IMG/VR virus record: IMGVR_UViG_3300021964_010723
DNA length: 64,000 nt
Reading direction: 5' to 3' (one strand)
Origin: a virus
Taxonomy: Duplodnaviria; Caudoviricetes
A program made the translations under genes and the position numbers. Of the stretch, positions 44,820 through 64,000 are shown piece by piece. The notes under the pieces were generated by a model. That model ran no database searches, had not been told where the DNA came from, and saw only the letters and a program-made list of their open reading frames with translations. The first letter of the stretch is position 1. Every line of letters begins with the position of its first letter.

Positions 44820-44822
44820 ATA
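44815..44822 (+). promoter_or_regulatory. T4-type late promoter TATAAATA
   Basis: Exact consensus overlapping the stop codon of 43248..44819, followed by the SD GGAG before ATG 44850. Confidence 0.7.
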
Positions 44823-45818: not shown

Positions 45819-46172
45819 ATGGATTCTAGATTAATAGATGCACTCGATTTTTCTAATTATCTCTTTTCTTTAACTAAACAAAAAGAATTAGCATTACACA
45901 AATTTGAAGAAAATTTAATTTTCTACAATAACGGCGGAACTTTTGTTATTACTTTAGATCTTATTAATTATTGTCAATTGTTAATAAGTAATGATCAAAA
46001 ACAAATCGTACTAATAGATAAAAATTCTATTCCAATCTTAATTAGTGATTTAACAAACTTTTTTGCAAAATTAGTGCAGCAGTACGAAAGAGCAAAAGAA
46101 AATTATTTTGAAGAATATTCAAAAATTATTAAATCTAGAGCCATAGAACAGATAATAGGTTTAGATGAATAA
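45819..46172 (+). CDS. Hypothetical protein, first gene of the tailoring cluster
   Basis: 117 aa; overlaps the next gene (46165-46172). Confidence 0.6.
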   Translation: MDSRLIDALDFSNYLFSLTKQKELALHKFEENLIFYNNGGTFVITLDLINYCQLLISNDQKQIVLIDKNSIPILISDLTNFFAKLVQQYERAKENYFEEYSKIIKSRAIEQIIGLDE

Positions 46173-46986
46173 AGGTATTTTAGTTTTTGCTAAAAACAAT
46201 AATTCCATCAATTATGTAAATCAAGCTAAATTTTTAGCAAAACAATCACAAAAATATTTAGATTTACCCGTTTCAATTGTTACAGACAATCCAATAGATA
46301 ATAATGTTTGGTTTGATAAAGTAATTTTATACGATAATTATGCAAAGCAATACAAAAAGTATAATGATGGACATTTAGAAGGAAAAGTTGATTATTTTTT
46401 TAATTCTGCTAGACAATTTGCTTTTGAGTTATCTCCATATGATCAAACTTTGATGTTAGATACTGACATTGTTATAATGAATGACAAATATTTACAATGT
46501 TTTGAACAAAGTGATGATTTTTTGATTTATCATGATGCAGTAGATATTGCAAATTCAAGAGATTATTATGAATTTACATACATTTCTGAAGAAAGTATAA
46601 AATTTTATTGGGCTACTGCGGTTTATTTTACAAAATCTAAAAAAAATCAAATTTTCTTTAACTTACTTCAACATATATATGAAAATTGGAATCATTATAG
46701 TTTGATGTTTAAAATTAAACAAAAATATTTTAGAAATGATCATGCTTTTAGTATTGCAATTCATTTATTACATAGCTATACTAAAAGCAGTGTAAAATCT
46801 ATGCCTGGAAAATTATTTTATACTATCGATAAAGATATTTGTGTAAGTATTAATGAAAATAAAATTTTTCTTTTATTAGAAAAATCAAACGAACCTATAA
46901 ATTATTATCCTGTTTCTGTAGGTAATTTAAATTTACATATAATGAACAAGTTTAGTTTAGATAAATGTATTGCTAATATGATATGA
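46165..46986 (+). CDS. Glycosyltransferase-like protein (GT-A fold, GT8-like)
   Basis: KGILVFA start, LPVSIVTD, SPYDQTLMLDTD (DxD), YWATAVYF and RNDHAFSIA. Confidence 0.6.
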   Translation: MNKGILVFAKNNNSINYVNQAKFLAKQSQKYLDLPVSIVTDNPIDNNVWFDKVILYDNYAKQYKKYNDGHLEGKVDYFFNSARQFAFELSPYDQTLMLDTDIVIMNDKYLQCFEQSDDFLIYHDAVDIANSRDYYEFTYISEESIKFYWATAVYFTKSKKNQIFFNLLQHIYENWNHYSLMFKIKQKYFRNDHAFSIAIHLLHSYTKSSVKSMPGKLFYTIDKDICVSINENKIFLLLEKSNEPINYYPVSVGNLNLHIMNKFSLDKCIANMI

Positions 46987-47801
46987 AATTAGGTATTGTA
47001 ATTTGTGCATTTGGAAAAGATTATATAACGCAAGCAGAATTATTTGTTCTTAGCTTAAAATCTTGTAATGTAACTCTTCCTGTTACTTTAATTACTTCTT
47101 GTAAAGAAAATATATCTTTAGATTATTTTTTTGATAATATAATTGAAATTCCTAACAATATAGAGGACACATTTTATCATGTAGATATAAGGTCTAATAT
47201 ATATTTTTTATCTCCTTATGATTTTACTTTTGTCTTTGATACAGATATATTAATTTTAGAGAATTTATATGATAATTTAGTCAACCTTTCTAATAAAGTT
47301 GATATGTTTTATACATCAAAGGTTTTTACCTACAGAGGAGATGAAATAATTAAAGATTGTTACTACCGTTCCGTTTTTTTAGATAATAATCTACCTAATA
47401 TATATAACGGGTTCTCTGCTTTTAAAAAAACAAATAGCAATGATATATTTTTTTCTTTACTTAAGAAAATTAATAAAAATTGGCAAGTTGTATATAAAAT
47501 GTTTTGCCCATTAAATACACCTAAGAATGCAAGTATGGATGTGTCTACTGCAATTGTATGCAAAATATTAGATATTAATCCAATCTATAAATTTAATGCT
47601 AAATTTGTTCATATGAAAGCTAAAAATCAAAATTGGAAAACTAATCCTTATTATTGGCAAGATAAAGTGCAAACATTTTTAACACCAAATTTAGATTTTT
47701 ATGTAGAAACTTTTAAACAAAAAGGAATTTTTCATTATACTGAAAATGCTTTTTGTAACGAAAATATGGTTAATACATATAAAAGTTATTTAAGTTTATG
47801 A
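46983..47801 (+). CDS. Glycosyltransferase-like protein (GT-A fold, GT8-like), paralogue of the preceding gene
   Basis: LPVTLIT, SPYDFTFVFDTD (DxD), LPNIYNG, SMDVSTAI, FVHMK and FHY. Confidence 0.6.
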   Translation: MKLGIVICAFGKDYITQAELFVLSLKSCNVTLPVTLITSCKENISLDYFFDNIIEIPNNIEDTFYHVDIRSNIYFLSPYDFTFVFDTDILILENLYDNLVNLSNKVDMFYTSKVFTYRGDEIIKDCYYRSVFLDNNLPNIYNGFSAFKKTNSNDIFFSLLKKINKNWQVVYKMFCPLNTPKNASMDVSTAIVCKILDINPIYKFNAKFVHMKAKNQNWKTNPYYWQDKVQTFLTPNLDFYVETFKQKGIFHYTENAFCNENMVNTYKSYLSL

Positions 47802-48349
47802 ATTATATATCATTTACTCCGGATAATGGAGAAATTTATAAAATTGCTCCGCATGCACCTTTACAAAAAGAAACATATATATGTGTAAAAACTAGTGAAG
47901 TTGTTCCTATTTTAACAGCTAAGTATCCTGTTTTATATAATTATCATGTTGTATATGATGAAAAGTCCTTTCAATATGTTTTAAAAAAGAAAGATGCAGA
48001 GATTGCAAAAGATAAAAGTCTAGGTAAATTATTTAATATACCTAATAAAAATAGCAATGCTAGCGTACAGATAACTGTAGATAAAGTTTCTAAACAATAC
48101 ATTGTAAAGATAAGTAAAACTGACGCAATAAAAATTTATGAAAAAAAATTATTGTTAAGTAAAACCTTTAGTGTTACAGAAGAAAATAATCCATTTATTC
48201 TTTACGAATCATTTACAGTTTATTTCAATCAAGACAAATTACAAAATACTTATAAAATACCTATTACTAATTTAGATGTATATACAAAGAAAAATTTTAG
48301 TATTTTTACAAAAAAACAATTTAGTTCATATTCTTATAAAATAAAATGA
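47798..48349 (+). CDS. Hypothetical protein
   Basis: 183 aa, overlap-coupled on both sides (ATGA). Confidence 0.55.
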   Translation: MNYISFTPDNGEIYKIAPHAPLQKETYICVKTSEVVPILTAKYPVLYNYHVVYDEKSFQYVLKKKDAEIAKDKSLGKLFNIPNKNSNASVQITVDKVSKQYIVKISKTDAIKIYEKKLLLSKTFSVTEENNPFILYESFTVYFNQDKLQNTYKIPITNLDVYTKKNFSIFTKKQFSSYSYKIK

Positions 48350-50835
48350 AAAATATACTACGTGTAATCGATAATGACGTAATTTTTTTGTCTTACGATG
48401 AACCAAATGCTGAAAAGAACTATGCAGATTTATTAACAAAAATACCCTGGGCTAAACGAATACACGGTGTGCATGGTTCTGATTCTGCACATAAAGAATG
48501 TGCAAAGATAAGCGAAACAGAAAGATTGATAGTTATAGATGGTGACAATATTGTTGACGAAAATTTTGTAAACGAAGAAATAAATTTTATAAAGAATGTT
48601 GATATAACAAAAAATGTAATTAGTTGGCCAGGAAGGAATATTATAAATGGCTTAATTTATGGCAATGGCGGTATTAAATGTTGGGACAAGCAAACTTTGC
48701 TTGATATAAAAACGCACGAAAATGCCGATCCAAATAATATACATGCACAAGTTGATTTTTGTTGGGATATAGAATATATTACAATGCAAAAGTCAATGAG
48801 TGTTGTAGAAAATAACTTTACACCTCAACAAGCATGGCGAGCTGGGTTCCGAGAAGGTGTTAAAATGTGCTTGTTAGAAGGTGTTAAACCGTCTATAGAA
48901 GAATTTAATAAAATACATTGGAAAAATTTGCATAGATTGTACATATGGTGTATGACAGGACAAGATGTGAAAAATGGAATATATGCTATATTAGGCGCTA
49001 GGCAAGGTTTCTACAAAACTATGTGTACTGACTGGGATTTTATAAATGTTAGAGATTTTGCTTATTTAAATACTTTATGGAATGATGAATTAGAAGGTGT
49101 AGATGAAAATAGTGCTGCTGATCTTGCACAACAGTTTGGAGATAAAATTAAACAGCAGTTAGATATACCTATTTCTAGTTTACCATTAAGCATAGATCAA
49201 AGTAAATTCCATAAAACTACATTTACAAATAGCATTAGACCAAAGCATCCTTTGTTAGCTGCGGACAAAGAAACAGCAAGTTATGATATTGTAATGATAA
49301 CATACAACGAATTGAATGGCACAGAAAATTACAATAGATTAAAAGACAGATTTACAAATGTAAAAAGGATTCATAAAGTAAAAGGAATACATCAAGCCCA
49401 TATAGCAGCCGCAGAGATATGTGAGACTGATATGATGTGGGTAGTAGACGGTGATGCAGAAATTGTAGAAGATTTTTGTTTTGATTATATAGTTCCTAAC
49501 AATGAAAAACAGTTTGTACATGTTTGGCGCAGCAAAAATCCTATAAATGATTTAGAATATGGCTATGGAGGTGTAAAATTATTACCTACAGATATGACAC
49601 GTAATATGGATTTATCAAAACCAGACATGACCACAAGCATAAGTAGACATTTTAAGAAAATGGATCAGGTTAGTAATTATACACGATTTAACGTAGATAA
49701 GTTTACTACCTGGCGTAGTGCATTTAGAGAGTGTTGTAAATTAGCAAGTTCGGTAATTGATAGACAAAAACAGCAAGAAACAGATGAAAGATTAGAACGT
49801 TGGTGCAGTGATTATGGAAAAGATAGGCCATTTGGCGAATATGCAATATTAGGTGCAAATGAAGGCAAAGTATATGGTATCGAAAATGCTGGTAATTATG
49901 ATATGCTTGCTAAAATAAATGATTTTGATTGGCTTCTTTCTACATTTAATAATGAGGATACAAGTAATTTAATTAATCAAAATGAAAAAGATTTTGATTA
50001 TGATAAAGTTAATAATATAGAATTTATTCATGGTTTGCATGAATATGCAGTATATAAATCTGAAAAAAATGTAGCAGAAAATTTAGATAATATTTTGAAA
50101 ATACTATATTCTGACAATATTTCTAAACATTTAATTTTAGATGTTTTAATGAATAGTTCAGGTGAGAATACAAGGTATTTTAGATTTGTGAGAGATTTTG
50201 TAAAAAAAGGTAAAAATTTAAAAATTTTGTCCGATGCATTTAGTCGTAGTCAAATGCGTAGTAAAATTTGGTTAGTTGATGAATTAGCTAAAATAATGCC
50301 TAATCCACGTAATGTTGTATTAATGGCAGGATGGTATGGACAGTTAATTGATTTGTTTGGTGACAAAGATATAGATAAAATAACCTTTAGGAAATTTAGA
50401 AATATAGAGATAGATAAAGAATGTTGTATAGAAAGTGATTATAATTTTAATTTACGTAGACTAGAAGAGCATAAAGTTAAAGCAGTAAAAGCAGATATTA
50501 ATAATCTCACCCTACATGAAAATGGATACGAATGGGAAGTGGAAACTTTTAAAACTGGAGAAAAATATGTAGAAAAATTCTTACCAGATTTAATTATTAA
50601 TACAAGTTCTGAACATATGACAACCGAATGGTTTAATCAAATACGTTTTAAAAAATGGATAAAAAAACCTTTGGTTGTAATTCAAAATAATAATTTTTTT
50701 GGAATACCCGAACATGTAAATTGTGTGCATAGTGTTGATCATATGAAAAAAGTATTTCCTATGGAAGAAATATTATTTGAAGGAGAATTACAGCTTAAAG
50801 GTTATAAACGTGTAATGTTAATAGGGTATGCATGA
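48346..50835 (+). CDS. Fusion protein: two tandem glycosyltransferase-like (GT2-like) domains plus a C-terminal class I SAM-methyltransferase-like domain
   Basis: Duplicated domain: FLSYDEPNAEKNY/MITYNELNGTENY, RIHGVHG/RIHKVKG, VIDGD/VVDGD, YGNGGIK/YGYGGVK, AWRAGFRE/TWRSAFRE. C-terminal DAFSRSQMRSKIWL, VLMAGWYG, NIEID and LIINTSSEHM. Confidence 0.65.
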   Translation: MKNILRVIDNDVIFLSYDEPNAEKNYADLLTKIPWAKRIHGVHGSDSAHKECAKISETERLIVIDGDNIVDENFVNEEINFIKNVDITKNVISWPGRNIINGLIYGNGGIKCWDKQTLLDIKTHENADPNNIHAQVDFCWDIEYITMQKSMSVVENNFTPQQAWRAGFREGVKMCLLEGVKPSIEEFNKIHWKNLHRLYIWCMTGQDVKNGIYAILGARQGFYKTMCTDWDFINVRDFAYLNTLWNDELEGVDENSAADLAQQFGDKIKQQLDIPISSLPLSIDQSKFHKTTFTNSIRPKHPLLAADKETASYDIVMITYNELNGTENYNRLKDRFTNVKRIHKVKGIHQAHIAAAEICETDMMWVVDGDAEIVEDFCFDYIVPNNEKQFVHVWRSKNPINDLEYGYGGVKLLPTDMTRNMDLSKPDMTTSISRHFKKMDQVSNYTRFNVDKFTTWRSAFRECCKLASSVIDRQKQQETDERLERWCSDYGKDRPFGEYAILGANEGKVYGIENAGNYDMLAKINDFDWLLSTFNNEDTSNLINQNEKDFDYDKVNNIEFIHGLHEYAVYKSEKNVAENLDNILKILYSDNISKHLILDVLMNSSGENTRYFRFVRDFVKKGKNLKILSDAFSRSQMRSKIWLVDELAKIMPNPRNVVLMAGWYGQLIDLFGDKDIDKITFRKFRNIEIDKECCIESDYNFNLRRLEEHKVKAVKADINNLTLHENGYEWEVETFKTGEKYVEKFLPDLIINTSSEHMTTEWFNQIRFKKWIKKPLVVIQNNNFFGIPEHVNCVHSVDHMKKVFPMEEILFEGELQLKGYKRVMLIGYA

Positions 50836-51050
50836 ATTTAGAAAATTTTAGTCTAAGAAAGCTACAAAAAGAAAGTGCTCGTGCATTAGCTACAATAGAA
50901 GCTACAAACGATAGAATATATCAATTTAATAAGCAAGCGCATCATGACAGTCAAAATTGGTACAAAACTGTTATAACCTGGTATGTAGGTAAATATAATG
51001 GTCTTCCAAGTGAGATAGGTCCAGGAAAGGATATTAAGATAATATGTTAA
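50832..51050 (+). CDS. Small hypothetical protein
   Basis: 72 aa, overlap-coupled to both neighbours. Confidence 0.55.
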   Translation: MNLENFSLRKLQKESARALATIEATNDRIYQFNKQAHHDSQNWYKTVITWYVGKYNGLPSEIGPGKDIKIIC

Positions 51051-51781
51051 ATAAAGTCCCAAACATAATTGTTATAGGCTGTAGTTGGTCTAAATGGGGA
51101 GACAACGATTTTTTCAGCAATTCATCTTTAAAAAAAGATAGTGTAAGTAGTTGGCCATTATTGCTGAGTGAGCAATATGATTGTAATGTTGAAAATTTCT
51201 CGCTATTAGGTAACAGTATAGCTTTTCAGTTTTATACTTTTTTAGAAATTCTAAAAAATTACAAATTAGAAGAAATTGATTTAATAATTTTACAAATAAC
51301 ATCTTTTTATAGGCAATCTTTTAAAATATCAAATAGTAAGTTTCAAAAGACGAATATTAAAGAAGATTTAAAGATTATTACACCTAAATATAGAAGTTTA
51401 AAATGTGATAGAATTGAACATCATAATCCTTATGCTCCGGCAAAATTTTTTAATCTTGGTAATAAGTCATTTTTTAGAAGATTATGTACAATGAATGCAA
51501 AATATTCTATTAATGCTGCTATAGAATTTGAAATAGCATGGATTGATAAAATATTAATTTTATGTAAAGAAAAAAATATACCTTGTCTTCCTTGGCAATA
51601 TAGCAATGGAAATAACTTTTGGGAATATGAAAAAGCTGAGTTTATTCTTGAAAAAGAATTATCTAATAAATTATGGCAAAAGTTTATAGTAGATGAAGGA
51701 AAACATTTTAACACAAAAGGACAACAATATATATTAGATCATTTTTTGTTAGACAGAATACGTAAATATGTACAATTATGA
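51044..51781 (+). CDS. SGNH/GDSL hydrolase or acyltransferase-like protein
   Basis: Block I IVIGCSWS, SWP, block II NFSLLGNS, IILQIT and C-terminal DEGKHFN (DxxH). Confidence 0.65.
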   Translation: MLNKVPNIIVIGCSWSKWGDNDFFSNSSLKKDSVSSWPLLLSEQYDCNVENFSLLGNSIAFQFYTFLEILKNYKLEEIDLIILQITSFYRQSFKISNSKFQKTNIKEDLKIITPKYRSLKCDRIEHHNPYAPAKFFNLGNKSFFRRLCTMNAKYSINAAIEFEIAWIDKILILCKEKNIPCLPWQYSNGNNFWEYEKAEFILEKELSNKLWQKFIVDEGKHFNTKGQQYILDHFLLDRIRKYVQL

Positions 51782-52841
51782 AGATATAAAAACAATTCAT
51801 TTAGAAATAACACAAAATTGTCAAGCTTCATGTCCTATGTGTGATAGGAATCAAAATGGCGGCGCATTAAATCCTCATATTAATTTAGATGAATTAACAA
51901 TAGATGATGTAAAAAATATATTCACAGCAGATTTTATTTCGCAATTATCTACTATGTATATGTGTGGTAATTTAGGCGATCCTATTGTTGCTCGTGATAC
52001 TTTAGAAGTTTTTGAATATTTTAGGAGTAATAATTCTAAAATGTGGTTGAGTATGAATACAAATGCAGGTGCTAGAGATGAGAATTGGTGGCAAGAACTT
52101 GCTAAAATTTATGGCAGGATGGGTGCTGTTATTTTTAGTGTAGATGGATTGCAAGATACAAATCATATTTATAGGCAAGGTGTAGTTTGGGAAAATGTAG
52201 AACGGTCTATGCGTAGTTTTACAGGTGCAGGAGGTAGAGGCCGCTGGGATTTTTTAATTTTTGATCATAACCAACATCAAGTAGAAGAAGCAGAACGGTT
52301 AAGTAAAGAATGGGGTTTTGAAAAATTTATTAAGAAAAAAACTGGACGGTTTGTAACAGCAAATGTTGAAGCAAAGGACACACATCAAGCAGTCAACAAA
52401 AAAGGTAAAAAGACTGCAGAGATAGCAAAACCTAAAGATGAATTTCAAAATATTGCAATTAAAAATTTACCAATATTATTAGAAAAATATGGCACTATGC
52501 ATAATTATTATAATAAAGTACCAATTTTTTGTAAAGTAAAAAAAGATGGTAGTTTATTCATTACTGCAGAAGGCTTAGCATTACCTTGTTGTTGGACAGC
52601 CGGCCGTATGTATAAATGGTGGCATGAAGACCCTAAAATAGAACAAATATGGAGTTTTATTGATAACAAATCTAAAATTAATGCAAAGAATGGGTTACAT
52701 CAAGTATTTGCCAGTGGAATTTTTGAAACTATAGAACAAAGTTGGAAGAAAACTTCTTGTGATAATGGAAGATTAAAAGTTTGTGCAATGAAATGTGGAG
52801 TAGAATTTGATCCTTTTTCCGCTCAATTTATAAAAAGTTAA
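51768..52841 (+). CDS. Radical SAM protein with C-terminal SPASM/twitch-like domain
   Basis: CQASCPMC, MCGNLGDP, TNAG and FSVDG, then C...ITAEGLALPCC...C...C. Confidence 0.9.
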   Translation: MYNYEDIKTIHLEITQNCQASCPMCDRNQNGGALNPHINLDELTIDDVKNIFTADFISQLSTMYMCGNLGDPIVARDTLEVFEYFRSNNSKMWLSMNTNAGARDENWWQELAKIYGRMGAVIFSVDGLQDTNHIYRQGVVWENVERSMRSFTGAGGRGRWDFLIFDHNQHQVEEAERLSKEWGFEKFIKKKTGRFVTANVEAKDTHQAVNKKGKKTAEIAKPKDEFQNIAIKNLPILLEKYGTMHNYYNKVPIFCKVKKDGSLFITAEGLALPCCWTAGRMYKWWHEDPKIEQIWSFIDNKSKINAKNGLHQVFASGIFETIEQSWKKTSCDNGRLKVCAMKCGVEFDPFSAQFIKS

Positions 52842-52857
52842 TATGGGAAAAAAATAA

Positions 52858-56582: not shown

Positions 56583-57796
56583 TGTTTACTTTGAAAAATA
56601 GCTGTGTTTATATGAATAATTTTCCTTTCATTAATAATAAAGGACAATTAAAGCTTTGTTGTAAAAATAATACGTATACAATGGAAGGAAATATCAAAAC
56701 TCATTCGTTAAAAGAAATGTATTTTAGTTCTTTATACAATGAGTTAAGGGATAAAATGTTAGCAGAAAAGGTTATAGAAGGATGTGATATTTGTTATTCA
56801 CAAGAAGCTCGTAACGAAGATAGTTTTAGAATTAGAGCTTTGACAAATATTACTAGAGAAGATAGAGATAAGATAGTTCCCTTTCCAAAAGTAAAGATAC
56901 AAAATTTAGATCTAAGGATAGGTTCTACTTGTAATTTAATGTGTTCAATGTGTCATCCTACAGATAGTAGTAAATGGTATGCAAATTATGAAACATTTGC
57001 AAAAGAAGTTCATAATAAAAGTGACAATCATGTGAACATTATTAAATCAACAAATATTCCAACTGATTTAAATTGGGCAACATATGACGAAAGTTGGGAT
57101 AATATTTTTAAAAGTATTGATGATGAATTAAATTTTGTTTACATTGCGGGAGGAGAGCCTTTTTATATTAAAAAATTTCCTGAGTATTTAACACATTTAA
57201 TTGAAAAATCTCCTAATGCAATAATTGAAATAAACACCAATTCAACTGCTGCTATTCCAGAAAAGTATTTAGATAAATTAAAAGGAAAGTTACAATTACG
57301 TATTAGTATAGATGGTTTTAGAAAAACAGAAGAATATCAACGTGCAGGTACAAATTGGAATGAGAAAATTAAGATAATTGATTCATATTCAAAATATTTT
57401 GAAATTAAATGTTTTGATATTACTCTAACAAGTTTTACTATTAGATCTTTGCCTTCTCTTGTAAGTTTTTTAGAAAATAGATATCCAAAAGTTCGTTTTT
57501 TATTTAGACCTGTTGTAAATAGGCAAGGTCAAGATATTAGAAGTGTACCTAAAAAATTTTTAAGTCATGTAAAAACATTTTGTAAGGAAAAACAAGAAAT
57601 AATTAATGAAAATAAGGAAATGCGCTGGCATTATAACAATATTAATCAAATTTTAAATTTTTTAAATCAAGATTATATTGATGAAAAAGAAACATTACAA
57701 AAACTTGTAAAATATTGGGATGATTTAACAGGAATACATTTTAAATCTTTTGATACAGAATTTGGAAATTGGATAAATGAAAACCATAGCAGTTGA
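56582..57796 (+). CDS. Radical SAM protein with N-terminal twitch/SPASM-like domain
   Basis: SCVY...LCC...CDIC; TCNLMCSMC, AGGEPF, NTN and SIDG. Confidence 0.9.
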   Translation: MFTLKNSCVYMNNFPFINNKGQLKLCCKNNTYTMEGNIKTHSLKEMYFSSLYNELRDKMLAEKVIEGCDICYSQEARNEDSFRIRALTNITREDRDKIVPFPKVKIQNLDLRIGSTCNLMCSMCHPTDSSKWYANYETFAKEVHNKSDNHVNIIKSTNIPTDLNWATYDESWDNIFKSIDDELNFVYIAGGEPFYIKKFPEYLTHLIEKSPNAIIEINTNSTAAIPEKYLDKLKGKLQLRISIDGFRKTEEYQRAGTNWNEKIKIIDSYSKYFEIKCFDITLTSFTIRSLPSLVSFLENRYPKVRFLFRPVVNRQGQDIRSVPKKFLSHVKTFCKEKQEIINENKEMRWHYNNINQILNFLNQDYIDEKETLQKLVKYWDDLTGIHFKSFDTEFGNWINENHSS

Positions 57797-58523
57797 GCAT
57801 AGTAGTCCTAATCAAAGTAAAATTTTTAAAATAGAATGGAATTTAGGAAAACGTTGTAATTTTAATTGTAGCTATTGTGATGAATATACTCATGATAATT
57901 ATAGTAAGCATATACCTTTTGATATAGCAAAAAAAACTATAGATAAAATTATGGCTAAAACGCAAAATAAAAAAATTAAAATAAATTTAACAGGCGGAGA
58001 ACCTACGGTAAATCCTGATATTGAAGAAATAATTTCTTATATGTATGATAATAATATAGATATAGGAATAACAACAAATGGAAGTAGGAAGCTAAATTTT
58101 TATCAAAAAATACTGCCAAAATTAGCAAGCTTAATATTTAGTTATCATATGGAATATCATGCAAGAGAAGTCCTTCCGGAAAATATTGTTGAAATATATA
58201 ATCTTGCTCAACAACAAAAAAAATATATTCACGTGCATGTTCATATGATGATGCTACCTACAAAATTTGATGAAGCAATTAATGCGTTTGATTTTTTTAA
58301 ACAGAATTCAGTTCCTGTTGTCATGCGCCGAATTAGACCAGCTTACAAAAAGGATAATGATGCAATTTATGAAAATAAAAAACTTATAGCTGGTAATATT
58401 GCAAGGCCTTTTTATGACGGTGTTGTTACATTGAAAATGACCCCAAATGGACCAGATTATTCAGGTGCTGATGATTATTATAGTAATGATGAGATAACAT
58501 ATTTAGAAAATAACAATGTATAA
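57777..58523 (+). CDS. Radical SAM protein, core only
   Basis: WNLGKRCNFNCSYC, LTGGEPT, TTNGSR and FSYH; no Cys-rich auxiliary domain in this ORF. Confidence 0.9.
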   Translation: MKTIAVEHSSPNQSKIFKIEWNLGKRCNFNCSYCDEYTHDNYSKHIPFDIAKKTIDKIMAKTQNKKIKINLTGGEPTVNPDIEEIISYMYDNNIDIGITTNGSRKLNFYQKILPKLASLIFSYHMEYHAREVLPENIVEIYNLAQQQKKYIHVHVHMMMLPTKFDEAINAFDFFKQNSVPVVMRRIRPAYKKDNDAIYENKKLIAGNIARPFYDGVVTLKMTPNGPDYSGADDYYSNDEITYLENNNV

Positions 58524-58905
58524 AATACTTAAAAATCAAAATAAAGCAGGTAGTTTTACGAATGTCGCTACTATAAGAAAAGATGGAAATGATATTTTTT
58601 ATGTAGAAGAAAATGTAAATGATATCACTGTAAGGCGAGAAAATCAGTATAAAGGTTGGTTGTGCTGGTCAGGTATCGAAAGTTTAATGATAGATGCAGA
58701 CGGAAATGTTTTTACTGCAACTTGTAGGACAAAAAAGTTAGGCAACATATATACCGAGTTTACTCTACCCGATGAACCCATTATATGTACAAAAAATTGG
58801 TGTGCTTGTGCAGCCGATTTAAATACAAGTAAAGCAATTGATATAGAATCAGCAAAATTATTAAGGAGGGCTAATAATGCATATTCTCGAACGTTGGGAA
58901 GCTAG
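58516..58905 (+). CDS. Stand-alone SPASM-like Fe-S domain (probably the split C-terminus of the preceding radical SAM)
   Basis: KGWLCWSGIESLMIDADGNVFTATC...LGNI...IICTKNWCACAAD. Confidence 0.75.
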   Translation: MYKILKNQNKAGSFTNVATIRKDGNDIFYVEENVNDITVRRENQYKGWLCWSGIESLMIDADGNVFTATCRTKKLGNIYTEFTLPDEPIICTKNWCACAADLNTSKAIDIESAKLLRRANNAYSRTLGS

Positions 58906-59482
58906 AAGAACAGAACGATGGTTTTCAGATACACCTATAGAAGAAGAAAAAATTAAAATATTATGTAATATTATACCGTGTATTCCCGCTCAACAAGGAG
59001 AAGCAGATCATTTTTGGTTTTGTATTTCACGTAAAGAAATAAGACTTAGAACTTTTATTTCCGTTAATGTCTTTCAAAATAATAACGAAGATGGAAATTT
59101 TGGTTTTGGATCTGTTTATTCAGCTCCTTTTATGTTTCTCTCATGTGATAATCAAGCCAGTAGTTGTAATAATGCTTGTTTAAATATAGGGCTGCATACA
59201 GGCGTATTGCTTTCTGTTGCGCTTGAGCTAGGTTTAGATGTTGCTACAATAGGATGCACGGCTGGTTTTAATATAGATAAAGTTTCAGAGTTTAATACAC
59301 TCATAAGGCAACGTAGATCTATACCCGGAGCTAAAGAATTATATCCTGTTACAGCAGTTTGTGTTGGTTATAAAGATAGGAAATATGCTAATAGAAATTA
59401 TATTCAGATACATGGAAAATATGTTGCAACACAGTTATCTAAGCCCTATCGAAGGAAACCTAACAATTTTATAGGAAAATAA
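58877..59482 (+). CDS. Nitroreductase-fold (FMN-binding) protein, divergent
   Basis: RRTERWFSDTPIEEEKI resembles RxSxRxF. Also IPA (PS-like), GVLLSVALELGLDVATIG and VCVGY. Confidence 0.55.
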   Translation: MHILERWEARRTERWFSDTPIEEEKIKILCNIIPCIPAQQGEADHFWFCISRKEIRLRTFISVNVFQNNNEDGNFGFGSVYSAPFMFLSCDNQASSCNNACLNIGLHTGVLLSVALELGLDVATIGCTAGFNIDKVSEFNTLIRQRRSIPGAKELYPVTAVCVGYKDRKYANRNYIQIHGKYVATQLSKPYRRKPNNFIGK

Positions 59483-59483
59483 A

Positions 59484-60773
59484 ATGGATTATAAAGAAAA
59501 AGCATTGTCTAGTAGTACATTTTGTCTATTGCCTTTTATACATATGGCAACAAAAACTGACGGGGACTTAAAGTTATGTTGTAGAAGTTGGCCAATTGGT
59601 AATATATCTAAACAAAGTATAAAAAGTTTATGGAATGGTAATACATACAAAAGGGTAAGGATGCAAATGTTAAACAGTCAACGCCCTCCAGAATGTGATG
59701 CATGTTGGCGTCATGAAGACATAGGTGTCAGAAGTATGCGACAAAGATACAATAAATCAAGATCAGAGCAATACCTAAATACCTTAGATAATTTGTCAGA
59801 TAATTATACAATGCCTTTACAAATTCCTATAATAGAAGCCAAATTAAGTAACTTTTGTAATTTAAAATGTAGAATGTGTCATCCATTAGACAGTACAAGT
59901 TGGAGTAAGGATTGGAAAGCAATTGAGCATTTGATGAAGGATGCAAATGAAAGCACATATAAAAAAGTTATAGAATATGATTTAACAGAAAAACCTTATA
60001 TAAATGCTTATGAAAATAATAATGAATTTTGGAGTGAATTTAAAGAAATTGCTCCGTTTTTAGATAGGATAGAATTTGCAGGGGGAGAACCACTTATTGA
60101 TCCCGTGCATTATAAAATTTTACATATACTTAAAGATTATGGAGATAATATAGAAATTAAGTATTCTACAAATTTAACTAGATTGAATTACAAGAAAGAT
60201 GATGTAGAAGTGCTTTGGAATTACTTTAAATGTATTGATTTAAATATTAGTATTGACGGTATATATGATGTTTATAATTACATAAGACAGTTAGGTGATT
60301 ATAATATTGTAAAAGAAAATATAAAAAAAATATCTAATCATAAAAAATTGCGTTATATAGGCGCAGCTATTACTTTACAAATTTATAATAGTTTTCAAAT
60401 ACCTGCCATGTTTGACGAATTTGTAGAGGAATGTAATATTGACATACATACTCATAGAGTAAATTATCCTAAATTTTTAGATGCAAGGGTTATACCACAA
60501 GATATACGAAATAGTATTATAAAAGATCTAGAAAAATATATACATACTGTATCACAAAAAACCCATACAAATTGGACAAAAGAAAGGAAAAATAAGGCTA
60601 TATCTCATTTAGAGGACGCAATAGCTATGTTTAAAGGAGGAGATATGTCAGCGCAAATAAACAATTTTATAGAATTTAGCGATATATTAGATAAAAAACA
60701 AGAGGTTAAAAAGACGTGGAGAGAATTGCTGCCAATATTAGTAAAAGGTATTAATAAAAATGATCACAGCTAA
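59484..60773 (+). CDS. Radical SAM protein with N-terminal twitch/SPASM-like domain
   Basis: FCLLPFIH...LCC...CDAC; FCNLKCRMC, FAGGEPL, STN and SIDG. Confidence 0.9.
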   Translation: MDYKEKALSSSTFCLLPFIHMATKTDGDLKLCCRSWPIGNISKQSIKSLWNGNTYKRVRMQMLNSQRPPECDACWRHEDIGVRSMRQRYNKSRSEQYLNTLDNLSDNYTMPLQIPIIEAKLSNFCNLKCRMCHPLDSTSWSKDWKAIEHLMKDANESTYKKVIEYDLTEKPYINAYENNNEFWSEFKEIAPFLDRIEFAGGEPLIDPVHYKILHILKDYGDNIEIKYSTNLTRLNYKKDDVEVLWNYFKCIDLNISIDGIYDVYNYIRQLGDYNIVKENIKKISNHKKLRYIGAAITLQIYNSFQIPAMFDEFVEECNIDIHTHRVNYPKFLDARVIPQDIRNSIIKDLEKYIHTVSQKTHTNWTKERKNKAISHLEDAIAMFKGGDMSAQINNFIEFSDILDKKQEVKKTWRELLPILVKGINKNDHS

Positions 60774-62124
60774 ACAACAAAGAGAAATTTTGCAATTTGG
60801 TTCTGTTGCTGTAACCTATGTTGCAGAAAAAGAACATAGATACAGTGATAAAGTTTTTGCCAGACTTTGTAAAAATGTGGCAGAATATGATGTTATTCAT
60901 CTTATAAAAAATGGAATTGCAGCGTCTATAGAAAACAGTTTAGTAGATAGTCTAAAATTTGCAAAAGCATATGACAAAAAATTTCTTTTATATTGCCAAG
61001 TAGGAAATTTAATTATTTGGGAAGAGATTGCAGAGCATTTAAAAGAAATTTTATTATTAAATCCTACGGTAAAATTTATAGGACATATTTTACAGCATAA
61101 TAATAAAAGTTTTTATATTCATCCTCAATTTTTTTTAATAGATGTGAAATGGGCTATTAGTAACAAATGCGTTACCATTTGTAATGAGCATTCGGATATT
61201 AAGTGGGAAGGCCCGTTATTAAGCAGGAGTAAAGAAAATTTTCATGATAATTACACTCCTATTTGGGTGCAGGCTACAGGTAAATATAAAAATTTTGTTG
61301 GAAGAGGTAAAGGAGCAAATATTATTGATATATTGGCACGATCTGCTGCAGATTTTATGCCTTGGCAAGTGAATGTTAGAAAAAATAAAAAATTTTTGTA
61401 TCCTACAGTAAAACAAGAATTAATTAAACAAAAAAATGAGATTTTTGAGGAAATGTTGTTTACTAGACCGTATGTTGCTAATACAGAAAATATTACACCT
61501 AAAGCAATGTTATCAAACATAAATCCAAAAATAAAGTTTAATATATCTTTTTCTCCTGCTAGTGGAATATTTTGGTTTTTATTACCTTATTACTTAAAGG
61601 TCACGTCGTTTGTTTATGATTCGTCGCCATATGCACTACGTATGGTTGAAAAAATTAGAATGGATTGGAATGGTAGGAATTATAAAGAGTTTGTAATTAA
61701 AAATTTTTTAAACGAAAGTCCTAATATAGGTTTGTATGCCGCTCATACAGGACCATTTTTAGATCAAGCAAATGATCTGATTGATTCTTTAGGGGAGGAT
61801 TTTGTTAGATGGTGGCATAAAAATAATAAAGGTCCTTTACGACAAGTTAATTTATGTAATTTTTCTAATTTTCAAAGATTATTAGTAGATGATCATAAAA
61901 ATTTAAATGTTTTTTTTAATTTTTCTAATATTTTTCATTTTAGACCAGTAGCTGTTTTTAATAGTTTACAAGAAAGGGTTAATTTGCTGAAGGAGATAAG
62001 AAATTTTATGTTAGAAAATTATAAATTTGTACATTTTCTTGGTACATCTCCTATTGGAAAAGACAAGATAGATGGAGATATAATTGATGGAAAATTAGTT
62101 TGCCCCCTAAAATTATTCGAATAA
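60760..62124 (+). CDS. Hypothetical protein in the tailoring cluster
   Basis: 454 aa, overlap-coupled to the upstream radical SAM; no motif I can name with confidence. Confidence 0.55.
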   Translation: MITAKQQREILQFGSVAVTYVAEKEHRYSDKVFARLCKNVAEYDVIHLIKNGIAASIENSLVDSLKFAKAYDKKFLLYCQVGNLIIWEEIAEHLKEILLLNPTVKFIGHILQHNNKSFYIHPQFFLIDVKWAISNKCVTICNEHSDIKWEGPLLSRSKENFHDNYTPIWVQATGKYKNFVGRGKGANIIDILARSAADFMPWQVNVRKNKKFLYPTVKQELIKQKNEIFEEMLFTRPYVANTENITPKAMLSNINPKIKFNISFSPASGIFWFLLPYYLKVTSFVYDSSPYALRMVEKIRMDWNGRNYKEFVIKNFLNESPNIGLYAAHTGPFLDQANDLIDSLGEDFVRWWHKNNKGPLRQVNLCNFSNFQRLLVDDHKNLNVFFNFSNIFHFRPVAVFNSLQERVNLLKEIRNFMLENYKFVHFLGTSPIGKDKIDGDIIDGKLVCPLKLFE

Positions 62125-62127
62125 ATA
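62121..62127 (+). promoter_or_regulatory. Probable late promoter (ATAAATA)
   Basis: Overlaps the stop codon of the upstream gene; 6 nt before ATG 62134. Confidence 0.5.
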
Positions 62128-62133
62128 AAATAT

Positions 62134-62853
62134 ATGGATAAAAATATAATAGATTTATTTGAAAAGAACAAATCAATTGGTCATTATTCTAAAGGTGTGC
62201 CTGCCTTGCCAAAAGAAATGATTCCTTGGCAAGGCAATTATGATCAAGCTGCAATGTGGATATTAAAAAATAGTTATCTACCTACTTTACTTTTAGATTT
62301 AGAAATCCCATTTAATGAAATGCTTGCAGAATCTGTAACCAATGACGAATATTACGTAAAACATAGAGGTAATAGATCACCTGGGTGGTATAGCATGGCC
62401 ATACATGGAACTGCAGTTAACCATACCCAACCTGCAGAATATTATTACAAAAAAAATAAACCTAAATATGATTGGACTGATTTAGCAGAAAAATGTCCTA
62501 TTACAAAAGATTGGTTAAAAAGTTTAGAATTTGAATCTTTTAGTAGGGTTAGATTTATGAAATTATCTCCAGGAGGATGGATAGAACCACATCAAGATAC
62601 ACATATTGCAGGAATTCAGGCATGGAATGTTGCTTTGAATCATCCCCCAGGACATGAATTTGTAATGGACAATTATGGATTGGTTCCTTGGCAAGAAGGG
62701 CAAGTTAGAGGAATAGATATTAGTTCTTTGCACAGTGTAAGAAATGTAGGAAAAAAGGATAGAATACATATAATTATTCATGGCAGTATTGGAGATAAAT
62801 TTAAAAAGATAATTTGTAAAAGTTATTTAGATCTGTATGAAAAAACCTATTGA
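62134..62853 (+). CDS. 2OG-Fe(II) oxygenase, aspartyl/asparaginyl beta-hydroxylase-like
   Basis: SRVRFMKLSPGGWIEPHQD (HxD), then LHSVRNVGKKDRIHIIIHG (distal His and Arg). Confidence 0.8.
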   Translation: MDKNIIDLFEKNKSIGHYSKGVPALPKEMIPWQGNYDQAAMWILKNSYLPTLLLDLEIPFNEMLAESVTNDEYYVKHRGNRSPGWYSMAIHGTAVNHTQPAEYYYKKNKPKYDWTDLAEKCPITKDWLKSLEFESFSRVRFMKLSPGGWIEPHQDTHIAGIQAWNVALNHPPGHEFVMDNYGLVPWQEGQVRGIDISSLHSVRNVGKKDRIHIIIHGSIGDKFKKIICKSYLDLYEKTY

Positions 62854-64000
62854 TATTGTGTTGTTAAGCACACCAGTAATGGAAACAAGAGTGCCTGCGC
62901 CTGCAATTTATTATCTAAAAGGCGCATTAAATCCGCATGGATTTAAATCTCGTTGTTTTGACTTAGTAAGAGATAGTGAAGAAAAATTTGGTGTAGAAGA
63001 CAATAAGAAAATAAACAGTTTTTTGTTAGCTAATTGGCATGCTGGAATGCTTGTTGATGAAGATGATAGAAGTATTTATAATAAAATTTTTCAATATTAT
63101 AGAGAATATGTAAAAGAAAAAATATTATGTTTAAATCCTAAATACATTGGTGTGAGCGTTTTCAGTCAAAATAGTCAAAAATCAAGTCACATATTATGTA
63201 AAGCTTTGAAAGAATTTTTACCGCATACTAAAATTATTTTAGGAGGAACTGGGTTAGGTATTTCTATGGGCGGAAAAAAAGAGTTTGGATCTAATTTAAT
63301 CGATCAAGGCTTAGCTGATTATTTTATTGACGGAGAAGGCGAAATTGCTTTAGTTGAACTATTAAAAGGTAATTTAAACTATCCGGGAATAAATTCTACA
63401 GTCTATAAACAAATTGATAACATAAATGATTTGCCTTTTCCTGATTATAGTGATTACATGCAAGATTACGGTAATATTAATAAAATTACTTTGACAGGAT
63501 CTAGAGGGTGCGTAAGGCGTTGTAGTTTTTGTGATATAGGAGCATTTTGGAAAAAATTTAGATATAGATCTGGTGAAAATATTGCTGAAGAAATTATTAG
63601 AAATAAAGAATTGTATAAATCCCGAACGCACTTTTTTTCAGACAGTCTTATAAATGGAAGCATGAAAGCATTTAGAGATTTTTGTAATGTTATGGCAGAT
63701 TATCATAAAAAGTATCCAAGAGGGAAGGACCGAATTAGATGGGGAGGACAGTTCATAATAAGGAGTGAAATGCAGAGTCCTGCAGAAGATTATGAATTAA
63801 TGCGTAGAGCAGGTATGTCTTGGGCTAGCATAGGAATAGAGAGTGCAAGTGAAAAAGTTAGAGATCATATGGATAAACAATTTAGTAATACAGATATGTA
63901 TTTTAGTATTGATAGATTAATAGAGAATGACATACCTGTTACTGCTATGTTTATAGTAGGCTATCCTACAGAGACTGAGGAAGAATTTAAAGAAAATATA
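62837..64000 (+). CDS. Cobalamin-binding radical SAM protein (class B methyltransferase-like), truncated by the window end (not in the ORF track)
   Basis: ATG 62837 gives MKKPIDIVLLSTPVMETRVPAPAIYYLKGAL..., then IGVSVFS, IILGGTG, DGEGE, DLPFPDY, TGSRGCVRRCSFCD (CxxxCxxC), FFSDSLING and IGIESAS. No stop to 64000. Confidence 0.85.
   Translation, partial: MKKPIDIVLLSTPVMETRVPAPAIYYLKGALNPHGFKSRCFDLVRDSEEKFGVEDNKKINSFLLANWHAGMLVDEDDRSIYNKIFQYYREYVKEKILCLNPKYIGVSVFSQNSQKSSHILCKALKEFLPHTKIILGGTGLGISMGGKKEFGSNLIDQGLADYFIDGEGEIALVELLKGNLNYPGINSTVYKQIDNINDLPFPDYSDYMQDYGNINKITLTGSRGCVRRCSFCDIGAFWKKFRYRSGENIAEEIIRNKELYKSRTHFFSDSLINGSMKAFRDFCNVMADYHKKYPRGKDRIRWGGQFIIRSEMQSPAEDYELMRRAGMSWASIGIESASEKVRDHMDKQFSNTDMYFSIDRLIENDIPVTAMFIVGYPTETEEEFKENI

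What the first reader, a model, noticed from the sequence alone, without database searches (positions are those of the whole stretch)
45819..64000. Phage-encoded ~18-kb radical-SAM/glycosylation tailoring cluster continuous with the tail-fibre genes
Seen: directly after the fibre genes come at least 19 same-strand, mostly overlap-coupled ORFs. They include 2 GT8-like proteins, a GT-GT-methyltransferase fusion, an SGNH enzyme, 7 CxxxCxxC radical SAMs, a split SPASM domain, a nitroreductase-fold protein, a 2OG-Fe(II) hydroxylase and a B12-dependent radical SAM. The promoter-like motifs I noticed at its entry points are late-type (TATAAATA 44815; ATAAATA 62121). Known: radical SAM/SPASM enzymes modify peptides and proteins (RiPP maturases, anSME), class B radical SAMs methylate, and GT8/GT2/SGNH enzymes build and acylate glycans. 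Inference: this is a dedicated late pathway that makes an unusual glycan or modified residues and installs them on the virion (fibres, the giant baseplate protein or capsid), or alters the host surface or phage DNA. Eight radical SAMs in one viral operon suggests uncharacterised chemistry.
Basis: partly seen in the sequence, partly recalled or inferred. Interest (0 to 1): 0.88.

Follow-up and report, generated by a model that had tools for sequence, protein, structure and literature searches.

The report
Phage radical-SAM and glycosyltransferase island
An uncultured estuarine giant phage carries, right after its tail-fibre genes, a long late-type operon of sugar-transferring enzymes and many intact radical-SAM enzymes of a family nobody has studied; it most likely decorates a sugar-containing product, perhaps on the virion, but the chemistry and the target are untested.

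Summary
From 45819 to 64000 there are 19 same-strand ORFs, and 15 of the 18 junctions overlap. Eight have intact CxxxCxxC radical SAM cores.

Five of the eight are full members of NCBIfam NF033640 (N_Twi_rSAM), which has the auxiliary 4-Cys twitch domain before the core. That permuted layout is catalogued, but I found no member studied biochemically.

Fold models support two retaining GT8/GT6-like GT-A enzymes and a GT-A/GT-A/methyltransferase fusion. The SGNH and nitroreductase calls rest on weak evidence.

A 99.6% identical IMG/VR contig shows the island running to about window coordinate 78.7 kb. It then holds 14 radical SAMs in all and meets a mirrored minus-strand fibre-plus-tailoring unit.

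A core is kept in at least 76 of 79 other viral loci, in Bdellovibrionia and other aquatic genomes, and in cultured Ralstonia phage RsoM2USA. The core is GT-A, methyltransferase, a 72-aa protein, a 357-aa rSAM and a 468-aa N_Twi rSAM. The other paralogs vary.

No island protein on the operon strand is membrane-bound, and no RiPP-type precursor is evident.

Best reading (0.42): a soluble, late, sugar-centred tailoring pathway, probably acting on virion proteins. Direct protein modification is the main rival.

This scan found the same kind of island before in another jumbo phage.

The parts
44815..44822 (+). TATAAATA late-type promoter-like motif, overlapping the stop of the 523-aa fibre gene and 27 nt before the ATG at 44850
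   Evidence: the motif is depleted (17 found against 65 expected for ATAAATA), and its plus-strand copies sit upstream of genes
44850..45806 (+). 318-aa Thr/Gly/Ser-rich protein (14% Thr), first gene behind the late motif; structural-looking, function unknown
   Evidence: no Pfam or PHROG hit; composition and G+C resemble the fibre genes
45819..46172 (+). 117-aa conserved unknown protein; left edge of the cassette shared with RsoM2USA
   Evidence: 39% identical to RsoM2USA ORF354, which also lies between a fibre-like gene and the GT8-like pair
46165..46986 (+). 273-aa retaining GT-A glycosyltransferase, GT8/GT6-like fold, DxD at 99-101
   Evidence: pLDDT 92.7; glycogenin, alpha-3-GalT, GlyE; no Pfam hit
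46983..47801 (+). 272-aa paralog of the GT8-like enzyme (27% identity, DTD motif)
47798..48349 (+). 183-aa unknown protein; RsoM2USA has a 184-aa ORF at the same position with no detectable similarity
48346..50835 (+). 829-aa fusion: GT-A domain A1 (about residues 7-260), GT-A domain A2 (about 305-535) and class I methyltransferase B (about 610-828); these are separate genes in bacteria and in RsoM2USA
50832..51050 (+). 72-aa uniformly conserved small protein, translationally coupled on both sides; partner of unknown role
   Evidence: present in 64 of 79 viral loci; 21 invariant positions
51044..51781 (+). 245-aa SGNH/GDSL-like candidate; an accessory gene missing in some population variants
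   Evidence: joints 50975/50987->51768 in runs X3 and X12
51768..52841 (+). 357-aa radical SAM with a conventional C-terminal SPASM-like Cys module; core gene
   Evidence: 25 of 30 genome loci; 78 of 79 viral loci
52858..54264 (+). 468-aa N_Twi radical SAM (T468); core gene, 68-82% identical across 282 IMG/VR contigs
   Evidence: (414 bits)
54257..55435 (+). 392-aa N_Twi radical SAM paralog
   Evidence: (175 bits)
55422..56582 (+). 386-aa N_Twi radical SAM paralog
   Evidence: (287 bits)
56582..57796 (+). 404-aa N_Twi radical SAM paralog
   Evidence: (198 bits)
57777..58523 (+). 248-aa radical SAM core without an auxiliary domain (first half of a split enzyme)
58516..58905 (+). 129-aa Cys-rich twitch/SPASM-like module (second half of the split enzyme)
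   Evidence: STM4011 C-terminus; one 328-aa ORF in L007
58877..59482 (+). 201-aa candidate nitroreductase-fold protein (under threshold)
59484..60773 (+). 429-aa N_Twi radical SAM paralog
   Evidence: (330 bits)
60760..62124 (+). 454-aa protein of an unnamed family; its homologues elsewhere are fused to Asp/Arg hydroxylase, radical SAM or B12-binding domains
62121..62127 (+). ATAAATA motif in the 9-nt gap before 62134; a possible internal late promoter, but only 6 nt from the ATG
62134..62853 (+). 239-aa Fe(II)/2OG oxygenase of the Asp/Arg beta-hydroxylase family (PF05118)
   Evidence: 48 bits
62837..64000 (+). Class B (B12-type) radical SAM, cut by the window end; 495 aa in the 99.6% identical contig

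Best explanation
The stretch is the first half of a roughly 33-kb late operon of a Rak2/Atu_ph07/PA5oct-like jumbo myophage. The operon runs from window coordinate 44850 or 45819 to about 78.7 kb.

It encodes a wholly soluble tailoring pathway built around a conserved kernel. The kernel holds two GT-A glycosyltransferase domains, a SAM methyltransferase, a 72-aa partner protein, one conventional rSAM/SPASM-like enzyme, the 468-aa twitch-first rSAM and, further on, a 371-aa rSAM.

Around the kernel sits a variable panel: seven more twitch-first rSAMs, three B12-type rSAMs, five or six Asp/Arg-hydroxylase-type oxygenases, two GT8-like transferases and an SGNH-like enzyme.

I infer the following. 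The radical enzymes each perform one hydrogen-abstraction-initiated change (oxidation, epimerisation, deoxygenation or C-methylation) on a sugar or sugar-nucleotide unit, or on the growing glycan. The GT-A enzymes transfer these units to a soluble acceptor. That acceptor is most probably a virion protein made from the same late transcripts, meaning the fibres, the 318-aa Thr-rich protein or the baseplate.

Shown: gene content, intact motifs, conservation, synteny with fibre genes, and the lack of membrane proteins.

Inferred: the sugar substrate, the virion target and the late timing.
For: Glycosyltransferase content. Four GT-A domains head the operon, and two were verified at fold level.

Linkage of the twitch-first rSAM to GT-A and methyltransferase genes. 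This linkage is almost invariable: 76-77 of 79 viral loci and 12-19 of 30 genome loci from four phyla. In RsoM2USA the single N_Twi gene sits between the two GT-A genes that are fused here.

Twitch module. It matches BtrN's twitch best; BtrN acts on an aminocyclitol.

Sugar-type neighbours. Related islands carry an NDP-sugar epimerase/dehydratase, Nucleotid_trans, a NodU-type carbamoyltransferase, an FkbM methyltransferase and an APS kinase.

No RiPP signature. The 72-aa protein is uniformly conserved with no hypervariable core. The Pfam and NCBIfam scans reported no RRE-type, protease or transporter family.

Soluble pathway. No plus-strand island protein has a transmembrane segment.

Late and virion link. 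A depleted ATAAATA motif is retained before 44850, before other structural genes and before the mirrored minus-strand fibre gene. The island follows the baseplate/fibre module on the same strand in four related jumbo contigs and in RsoM2USA.

Functional constraint. The eight paralogs share 18-33% identity with every Cys ligand and the GGE motif intact. The island is present at 70-95% of sampled words in metagenomes of at least 13 other studies.
Against: No member of NF033640 has a known substrate. Most characterised SPASM/twitch rSAMs act on peptides or proteins (own knowledge; CrpC acts on a whole protein, PMC13692751).

PF05118 enzymes and class B rSAMs also have well-known protein substrates. 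The closest sub-threshold NCBIfam hits of the B12 enzymes include RiPP C-methyltransferases.

The island has no sugar-nucleotide synthesis genes of its own within the window.

Fibre homologues lie within 10 kb in only 7 of 79 viral loci, though many of those contigs are short.

Timing rests on a motif only. The Bdellovibrionales islands show few recognisable sugar genes beyond the GT-A and methyltransferase pair.

Earlier checks within this scan priced the claim that each enzyme changes a sugar at about 10% for similar arrays.
Confidence: 0.42

Rival explanations
1. The radical SAMs, B12 methylases and Asp/Arg-type hydroxylases act directly on amino-acid residues, as in proteusin/polytheonamide-like or CrpC-like maturation. 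The reactions would be epimerisation, C-methylation, beta-hydroxylation or cross-links. The substrate would be a protein: a fibre, the 318-aa Thr-rich protein or the 72-aa protein. The glycosyltransferases would then add sugars to the same protein, as lysyl hydroxylase plus GT-A enzymes do on collagen.
For: Most studied SPASM/twitch rSAMs serve peptides or proteins (own knowledge; PMC13692751 shows a whole-protein substrate). PF05118 is the Asp/Asn beta-hydroxylase family. The best, sub-threshold hits of the B12 rSAMs include RiPP C-methyltransferases and the MCR Gln C-methyltransferase. The top fold hits of the 829-aa and 273-aa proteins include protein-glycosylating enzymes: R699 and LH3 on collagen, glycogenin, and GlyE. 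The 72-aa gene sits directly before a conventional rSAM/SPASM-like gene in 64 of 79 viral loci. Fibre genes flank the island on both sides.
Against: The Pfam and NCBIfam scans reported no RRE or PqqD family, and the N-terminus of the N_Twi enzymes is taken up by the twitch module. No leader/core pattern is seen: the 72-aa protein is conserved along its whole length. The structural proteins have no Cys-rich or repeat substrate (0-0.8% Cys, no collagen repeats). The core rSAMs are 58-83% identical between phage and bacteria of different phyla, which fits a small universal substrate better than a lineage-specific protein.
Confidence: 0.22
2. The island makes or remodels a diffusible small molecule, such as an aminoglycoside- or nucleoside-like natural product or a peptide-derived glycosylated cofactor in the manner of mycofactocin. 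The molecule would be used during infection and would not become part of the virion.
For: The kernel of GT-A, methyltransferase, small protein and rSAM/SPASM recalls mycofactocin-type logic (own knowledge). rSAM, B12-rSAM and GT sets are typical of aminoglycoside and nucleoside antibiotic clusters: BtrN, BlsE and KedN5-family hits appear. The same kernel occurs in free-living bacteria without phage genes.
Against: No scaffold-forming enzyme (cyclase, NRPS/PKS, peptidase) and no exporter or resistance gene was found. The position inside the late structural region is conserved in jumbo phages.
Confidence: 0.12
3. The island is an auxiliary pathway that supplies modified sugar nucleotides to host glycan assembly. 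It thereby changes the host surface (LPS, capsule or glycoprotein) during infection, for example to block superinfection.
For: Arrays of the same families occur in bacterial genomes, with up to 11 or more copies each. Earlier scan reports place similar arrays inside surface-glycan export loci. The phage pathway lacks its own export machinery, so it would have to use the host's.
Against: A late-type promoter and a position behind the fibre genes leave little time for surface remodelling before lysis. Four transferase domains with no membrane step suggest a soluble acceptor.
Confidence: 0.1
4. The enzymes hypermodify phage DNA, by glycosylation plus radical tailoring of a base.
For: Phage-encoded glycosyltransferases are known to decorate DNA (cited in PMC12619734). 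The genome is reported to hold a DpdA-like system elsewhere (an unchecked first-reader note).
Against: No hydroxymethylase, DNA-binding or base-flipping domain lies in or next to the island. The late-type motif and the fibre linkage argue against it. The same kernel occurs in many bacteria.
Confidence: 0.04

Closest known systems
NCBIfam NF033640, N_Twi_rSAM (twitch domain-containing radical SAM protein)
   Same: Five in-window proteins, and two more beyond the window, pass the curated cut-off over the full length. They have four invariant N-terminal Cys, then CxxxCxMC and GGE.
   Different: The family is only a catalogue entry, and I found no biochemical study of it. Here eight old paralogs (18-33% identity) sit in one viral operon.
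BtrN (butirosin 2-deoxy-scyllo-inosamine dehydrogenase), the founding twitch rSAM
   Same: The N-terminal 4-Cys module aligns with BtrN's twitch domain, residues 166-237. BtrN acts on a sugar-like small molecule.
   Different: In BtrN the twitch follows the barrel, whereas here it precedes it. The similarity is weak (E about 1e-3) and limited to the module.
Virus-encoded glycosylation machineries: Mimivirus fibril and collagen glycosylation including R699, and mycobacteriophage virion glycosylation (Freeman et al. 2023, cited in PMC12619734)
   Same: Virus-encoded GT-A enzymes sit next to structural genes. R699 is the top fold hit of the 829-aa protein.
   Different: To my knowledge none of these systems includes radical SAM enzymes. 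TM-scores are low because only domains match.
Proteusin/polytheonamide-type and CrpC-type radical SAM maturation of peptides and proteins
   Same: Several rSAMs, B12-dependent C-methyltransferases and an Fe/2OG hydroxylase act together on one product. CrpC shows that a whole protein can be the substrate (PMC13692751).
   Different: No leader peptide, RRE, protease or Cys-rich substrate was found. Glycosyltransferases are constant partners here.
Ralstonia phage RsoM2USA ORFs 347-355 (all annotated hypothetical)
   Same: The order is syntenic: fibre-like gene, p117 homologue, two GT8-like genes, a small ORF, GT-A, N_Twi rSAM, GT-A, methyltransferase. Identities are 24-41%.
   Different: It has a single radical SAM instead of fourteen, and the GT-A and methyltransferase genes are not fused.

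Membership tests
Radical SAM superfamily (PF04055) | CxxxCxxC cluster motif and a Pfam score over the gathering cut-off | tested here: met
   Eight in-window proteins score 29.5-68.8 bits against a cut-off of 29.5, and all carry the motif. Two sit at or just above the cut-off.
NF033640 N_Twi_rSAM | Full-length HMM score of at least 170 bits | tested here: met
   52858 scores 414 bits, 59484 scores 330, 55422 scores 287, 56582 scores 198 and 54257 scores 175. Two more beyond the window pass, and one does not at 131-144 bits.
NF033640 N_Twi_rSAM | Auxiliary 4-Cys twitch module N-terminal to the rSAM core | tested here: met
   C9, C27, C92 and C95 are invariant in all 8 paralogs. Pfam SPASM maps to residues 4-96, before Radical_SAM. 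The module matches BtrN's twitch.
Class B (cobalamin-dependent) radical SAM | N-terminal B12-binding domain (PF02310) plus an rSAM core | tested here: inconclusive
   For 62837 the core is clear at 68.8-75 bits. PF02310 scores only 17-18 bits against a cut-off of 32. All best NCBIfam hits are class B families, but far below their cut-offs.
CAZy GT8 / Pfam Glyco_transf_8 | Family HMM match | tested here: not met
   No Pfam or NCBIfam hit for 46165 or 46983, even at E 5.
CAZy GT8 / retaining GT-A fold | GT-A fold with DxD, closest to retaining GT8/GT6 structures | tested here: met
   The model has pLDDT 92.7. Glycogenin, alpha-3-GalT/ABO and GlyE match at probability 1.0 and TM 0.43-0.45. D99 and D101 are invariant.
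GT-A glycosyltransferase plus class I methyltransferase fusion | Two Rossmann-like GT-A domains with DxD and a C-terminal SAM-methyltransferase fold | tested here: met
   Fold hits include K4CP, R699, LH3 and many methyltransferases. DGD motifs lie at residues 65-67 and 368-370. PF00535 is precomputed in two homologues.
SGNH/GDSL hydrolase | Family HMM, or blocks I-V with Ser, Gly, Asn and His | tested here: inconclusive
   No Pfam, NCBIfam or PDB hit. A language-model neighbour cluster is named GDSL-like at score 0.96. By eye, GCS resembles block I and DEGKHFNTKG resembles block V.
Asp/Arg beta-hydroxylase (PF05118) | Pfam score over the cut-off | tested here: met
   48 bits against 22.6 for 62134. 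By eye, an HxD motif (HQD) and a distal His are present.
RiPP biosynthetic cluster | Precursor peptide with a conserved leader and variable core, an RRE, and a protease or exporter | tested here: not met
   The 72-aa protein is uniformly conserved. Pfam and NCBIfam report no RRE, PqqD, peptidase or transporter family. No plus-strand island protein has a membrane segment.
Wzx/Wzy- or ABC-dependent surface-polysaccharide locus | Initiating lipid-carrier transferase, flippase, polymerase or exporter | tested here: not met
   No plus-strand island protein has a hydrophobic 19-residue window typical of a membrane helix. Only one minus-strand protein beyond the window does.
Nitroreductase (PF00881) | Pfam score over the cut-off | tested here: inconclusive
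   18.1 bits against 23.5; PDB 5j62 at E 0.006.

The most novel reading that the evidence does not exclude
The phage matures its own tail-fibre or baseplate proteins in the way a RiPP is matured. A battery of radical SAM enzymes, B12 methylases and hydroxylases would rewrite residues, and the glycosyltransferases would then build unusual glycans on them. The result would be a chemically non-canonical adhesin surface. The variable enzyme panel would diversify host range or protect the fibres from proteases and host defences.
Probability: 0.15. Interest if true: 0.92.

Novelty: new variant of a known kind. Interest (0 to 1): 0.72.

Why it matters
If the product sits on the virion, this would be the first case I know of where radical SAM chemistry shapes a phage particle. 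The variable enzyme panel would then be a new axis of host-range or defence-evasion variation in abundant estuarine and marine jumbo phages.

Whatever the target, the conserved kernel is widespread and functionally blank. It comprises GT-A, methyltransferase, the 72-aa protein, rSAM-357, T468 and rSAM-371. T468 relatives occur in 282 IMG/VR contigs, and the N_Twi family passes its cut-off in 46 of 151 sampled genomes of one bacterial class.

The cultured phage RsoM2USA carries a one-rSAM mini-version, which gives a tractable system for finding the first substrate of the N_Twi family.

Tried and rejected
- Megablast of the island against 50,697 phage records found no match.
- Protein searches against the same records found only RsoM2USA, Vibrio phages K566/K567 and one marine viral fragment.
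- Pfam, PHROG and NCBIfam gave nothing for 45819, 46165, 46983, 47798, 48346, 50832, 51044 and 60760.
- PDB sequence searches gave nothing useful for rSAM-371, the 245-aa protein, the hydroxylase or the 454-aa family profile. The ubiquitin hits of rSAM-357 are spurious low-complexity matches.
- Literature searches for an N-terminal twitch/SPASM family returned no study of it. A search for radical SAM in marine jumbo phages found nothing on such an island.
- The complex prediction of the 72-aa protein with rSAM-357 gave no verdict (score 0.09 against a mark of 0.32). It counts neither for nor against binding.
- The 72-aa protein as a RiPP precursor was rejected as the main reading, because it is conserved along its whole length.
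- Collagen-like or Cys-rich substrates were looked for among the structural proteins, and none was found.
- A TSP3-repeat protein beside the Bdellovibrionales arrays looks like an outer-membrane protein and is absent from phage loci.
- The window has no Rfam family and no tandem repeat of note. Terminator-like sites do not exceed chance.
- The RNA library X20 holds only 150-370-nt contigs from the island. This cannot be told apart from DNA carry-over, so I do not count it as expression.
- No whole genome is held for this window.

Full report
**What the window is.**
The left and middle of the window encode T4-type replication and repair genes and a baseplate/fibre module. The module includes a baseplate hub, a 1141-aa wedge protein and a 5450-aa giant ORF. 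Three fibre proteins share one N-terminal domain. The wedge protein is 34-39% identical to those of Atu_ph07, SCTP-2 and PA5oct-like jumbo phages. The sequence is therefore a low-G+C (about 30%) jumbo myophage. No whole genome is held. IMG/VR contig IMGVR_UViG_3300021425_004041 is 99.6% identical over the overlap and extends the sequence by about 25 kb. Its coordinate equals the window coordinate minus 3500.

**Check of the observation.**
- From 45819 to the window end there are 19 plus-strand ORFs. Fifteen of the 18 junctions overlap.
- Eight proteins carry CxxxCxxC and pass Pfam Radical_SAM.
- In five of them Pfam places the SPASM module before the core. NCBIfam identifies these as full-length members of NF033640, N_Twi_rSAM, at 175-414 bits against a cut-off of 170.
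- An alignment of all eight twitch-first paralogs of the island shows 18-33% pairwise identity. Four N-terminal Cys, the CxxxCxMC motif and GGE are invariant. These are old, intact paralogs and not decaying copies.
- The N-terminal module aligns with the twitch domain of BtrN.
- The 248-aa rSAM plus the 129-aa Cys-rich ORF correspond to a single 328-aa ORF in a relative, so the enzyme is split.

**The proteins without HMM hits.**
The two "GT8-like" proteins and the 829-aa protein match nothing in Pfam, PHROG or NCBIfam, so I folded them.
- The 273-aa protein (pLDDT 92.7) matches glycogenin, GT6 alpha-3-galactosyltransferases and GlyE. Its DxD motif is invariant. The 272-aa neighbour is its paralog.
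- The 829-aa protein (pLDDT 83.7) matches tandem GT-A enzymes (K4CP, Mimivirus R699, LH3) and class I methyltransferases.
- The hydroxylase is a clear PF05118 member.
- The SGNH, nitroreductase and B12-binding calls are plausible but under threshold.

**Promoter-like motifs.**
ATAAATA is strongly depleted: 17 copies against 65 ± 8 expected. Five of its seven plus-strand copies lie just before genes, including 44850 and 62134. This behaviour fits a T4-type late promoter, which is inference from the motif alone. The copy at 62121 is only 6 nt from the start codon. No terminator signal exceeds chance.

**True extent.**
The operon continues beyond the window. It adds three more N_Twi genes (one under the cut-off), a 371-aa rSAM, and 608-aa and 519-aa B12-type rSAMs. 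It also adds three more PF05118 proteins and unknowns, and ends near window coordinate 78.7 kb.

There it meets a minus-strand unit. That unit starts with an ATAAATA motif and an Mtd_N fibre gene. It continues with a further PF05118 protein, weak (under-threshold) sulfotransferase-like and aminotransferase-like genes, and unknowns.

In total the island holds 14 radical SAM genes. No plus-strand protein has a membrane-type hydrophobic segment.

**Conservation.**
- The 468-aa N_Twi protein (T468) has 4221 relatives at E ≤ 1e-10, many at 70-83% identity in marine and estuarine assemblies. It also has 282 relatives in IMG/VR.
- In 79 viral loci, rSAM-357 accompanies T468 in 78, the GT-A domain in 76-77, the methyltransferase in 76 and the 72-aa protein in 64.
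- Orthologues of the individual other paralogs occur in only 0-9 loci.
- Loci of at least 18 kb hold a median of six N_Twi genes and three other rSAMs within 10 kb.
- In species-representative genomes the same kernel occurs in Bdellovibrionales, Crocinitomicaceae and Acidimicrobiaceae MAGs. Single genomes hold 10 or more copies.
- 46 of 151 sampled genomes of the Bdellovibrionia class have the family over the cut-off, against none of 14 control genomes.
- The "Gammaproteobacteria MED685" contig with the closest island carries ThyX and DUF2201 and may itself be viral.
- The wedge gene and the island lie 44-50 kb apart on the same strand in four related jumbo contigs.
- Cultured Ralstonia phage RsoM2USA has a syntenic mini-cassette directly after a fibre-like gene, downstream of its baseplate genes: p117, two GT8-like genes, a small ORF, GT-A, one N_Twi, GT-A, methyltransferase.
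- The stretch is present in estuary, seawater and plankton metagenomes of at least 13 other studies. One population variant lacks the SGNH-like gene.

**Interpretation.**
- The constant partnership of the twitch-first rSAM with GT-A and methyltransferase genes points to a sugar-containing product. In RsoM2USA the N_Twi gene sits between the two GT-A genes.
- The four transferase domains at the operon head point the same way.
- So do the sugar-nucleotide-type neighbours in related islands.
- The absence of a RiPP signature is consistent with that reading.
- The absence of any membrane step argues for a soluble acceptor.
- The late-type motifs and the fibre genes on both flanks make virion proteins the most economical acceptor.

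None of this is shown biochemically. Precedent for SPASM/twitch, PF05118 and class B enzymes leans towards protein substrates, for example CrpC (PMC13692751). I therefore hold the sugar-on-virion reading at 0.42 and direct protein maturation at 0.22. The small-molecule, host-surface and DNA readings rank lower.

**Additional points.**
- The 454-aa family is fused elsewhere to PF05118, Radical_SAM or B12-binding domains. That ties it functionally to its two right-hand neighbours.
- The 72-aa protein looks like a folded partner and not a precursor. A complex test with rSAM-357 gave no verdict.

**Earlier work in this scan.**
The scan had already reported the same kind of island in a freshwater jumbo phage, and similar arrays in Omnitrophota and DPANN genomes. 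My results agree with those reports.
- fold-level checks of the transferases;
- the promoter-motif statistics;
- the mirrored architecture;
- the RsoM2USA cassette;
- the co-occurrence counts.

**Verdict.**
This is a real, conserved and widespread island whose function is unknown. The domain permutation is catalogued, so the open questions are the chemistry and the target.

Noticed in passing
window 22086-38438 (+): A single 5450-aa ORF lies between the baseplate wedge gene and the fibre genes. RsoM2USA has a 2541-aa structural protein at the equivalent place.
   Followed up: no
window, whole; plus-strand copies at 5698, 12583, 18608, 38435, 44816, 53914, 62121: ATAAATA is about four-fold depleted (17 found against 65 expected). 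On the coding strand it is kept almost only just upstream of genes, as expected of a late-promoter core that selection removes elsewhere.
   Followed up: partly
window 46001-48000: G+C drops to 23% over the two GT8-like genes, against 36% in the adjacent fibre genes. The island is compositionally uneven (23-31%), which suggests acquisition in pieces.
   Followed up: no
window 50975-51768: Contigs in two independent metagenomes (X3, X12) join about 50975/50987 directly to 51768. They therefore lack the 245-aa SGNH-like gene, which matches the gene order in other viral loci.
   Followed up: partly
window 60760-62124: The 454-aa protein belongs to an unnamed family (224 representatives at E <= 0.001). 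Some members are fused to PF05118, Radical_SAM or B12-binding domains.
   Followed up: partly
L038 2766-10370 (Ralstonia phage RsoM2USA, MG752970.1, ORFs 347-355): A cultured jumbo phage carries a nine-gene mini-version of the cassette with a single N_Twi rSAM. All nine genes are annotated hypothetical.
   Followed up: partly
L040 17413-21143 (NZGL01000008.1, 'MAG: Gammaproteobacteria bacterium MED685'): The contig with the closest island also carries ThyX, a DUF2201 protein and many small unknown ORFs. It may be a phage contig binned with a bacterium.
   Followed up: no
L002 11766-13349 (-), about window coordinate 81765-83348: A second fibre gene (Mtd_N domain) lies on the minus strand with ATAAATA 26 nt upstream. 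Minus-strand tailoring-type genes follow it, mirroring the plus-strand unit.
   Followed up: partly
window 55513-55663, 56867-57096, 61685-61840, 63174-63340, 63837-64000: Short contigs of a metatranscriptome library (X20) match the island with 0-1 differences. DNA carry-over cannot be excluded.
   Followed up: partly
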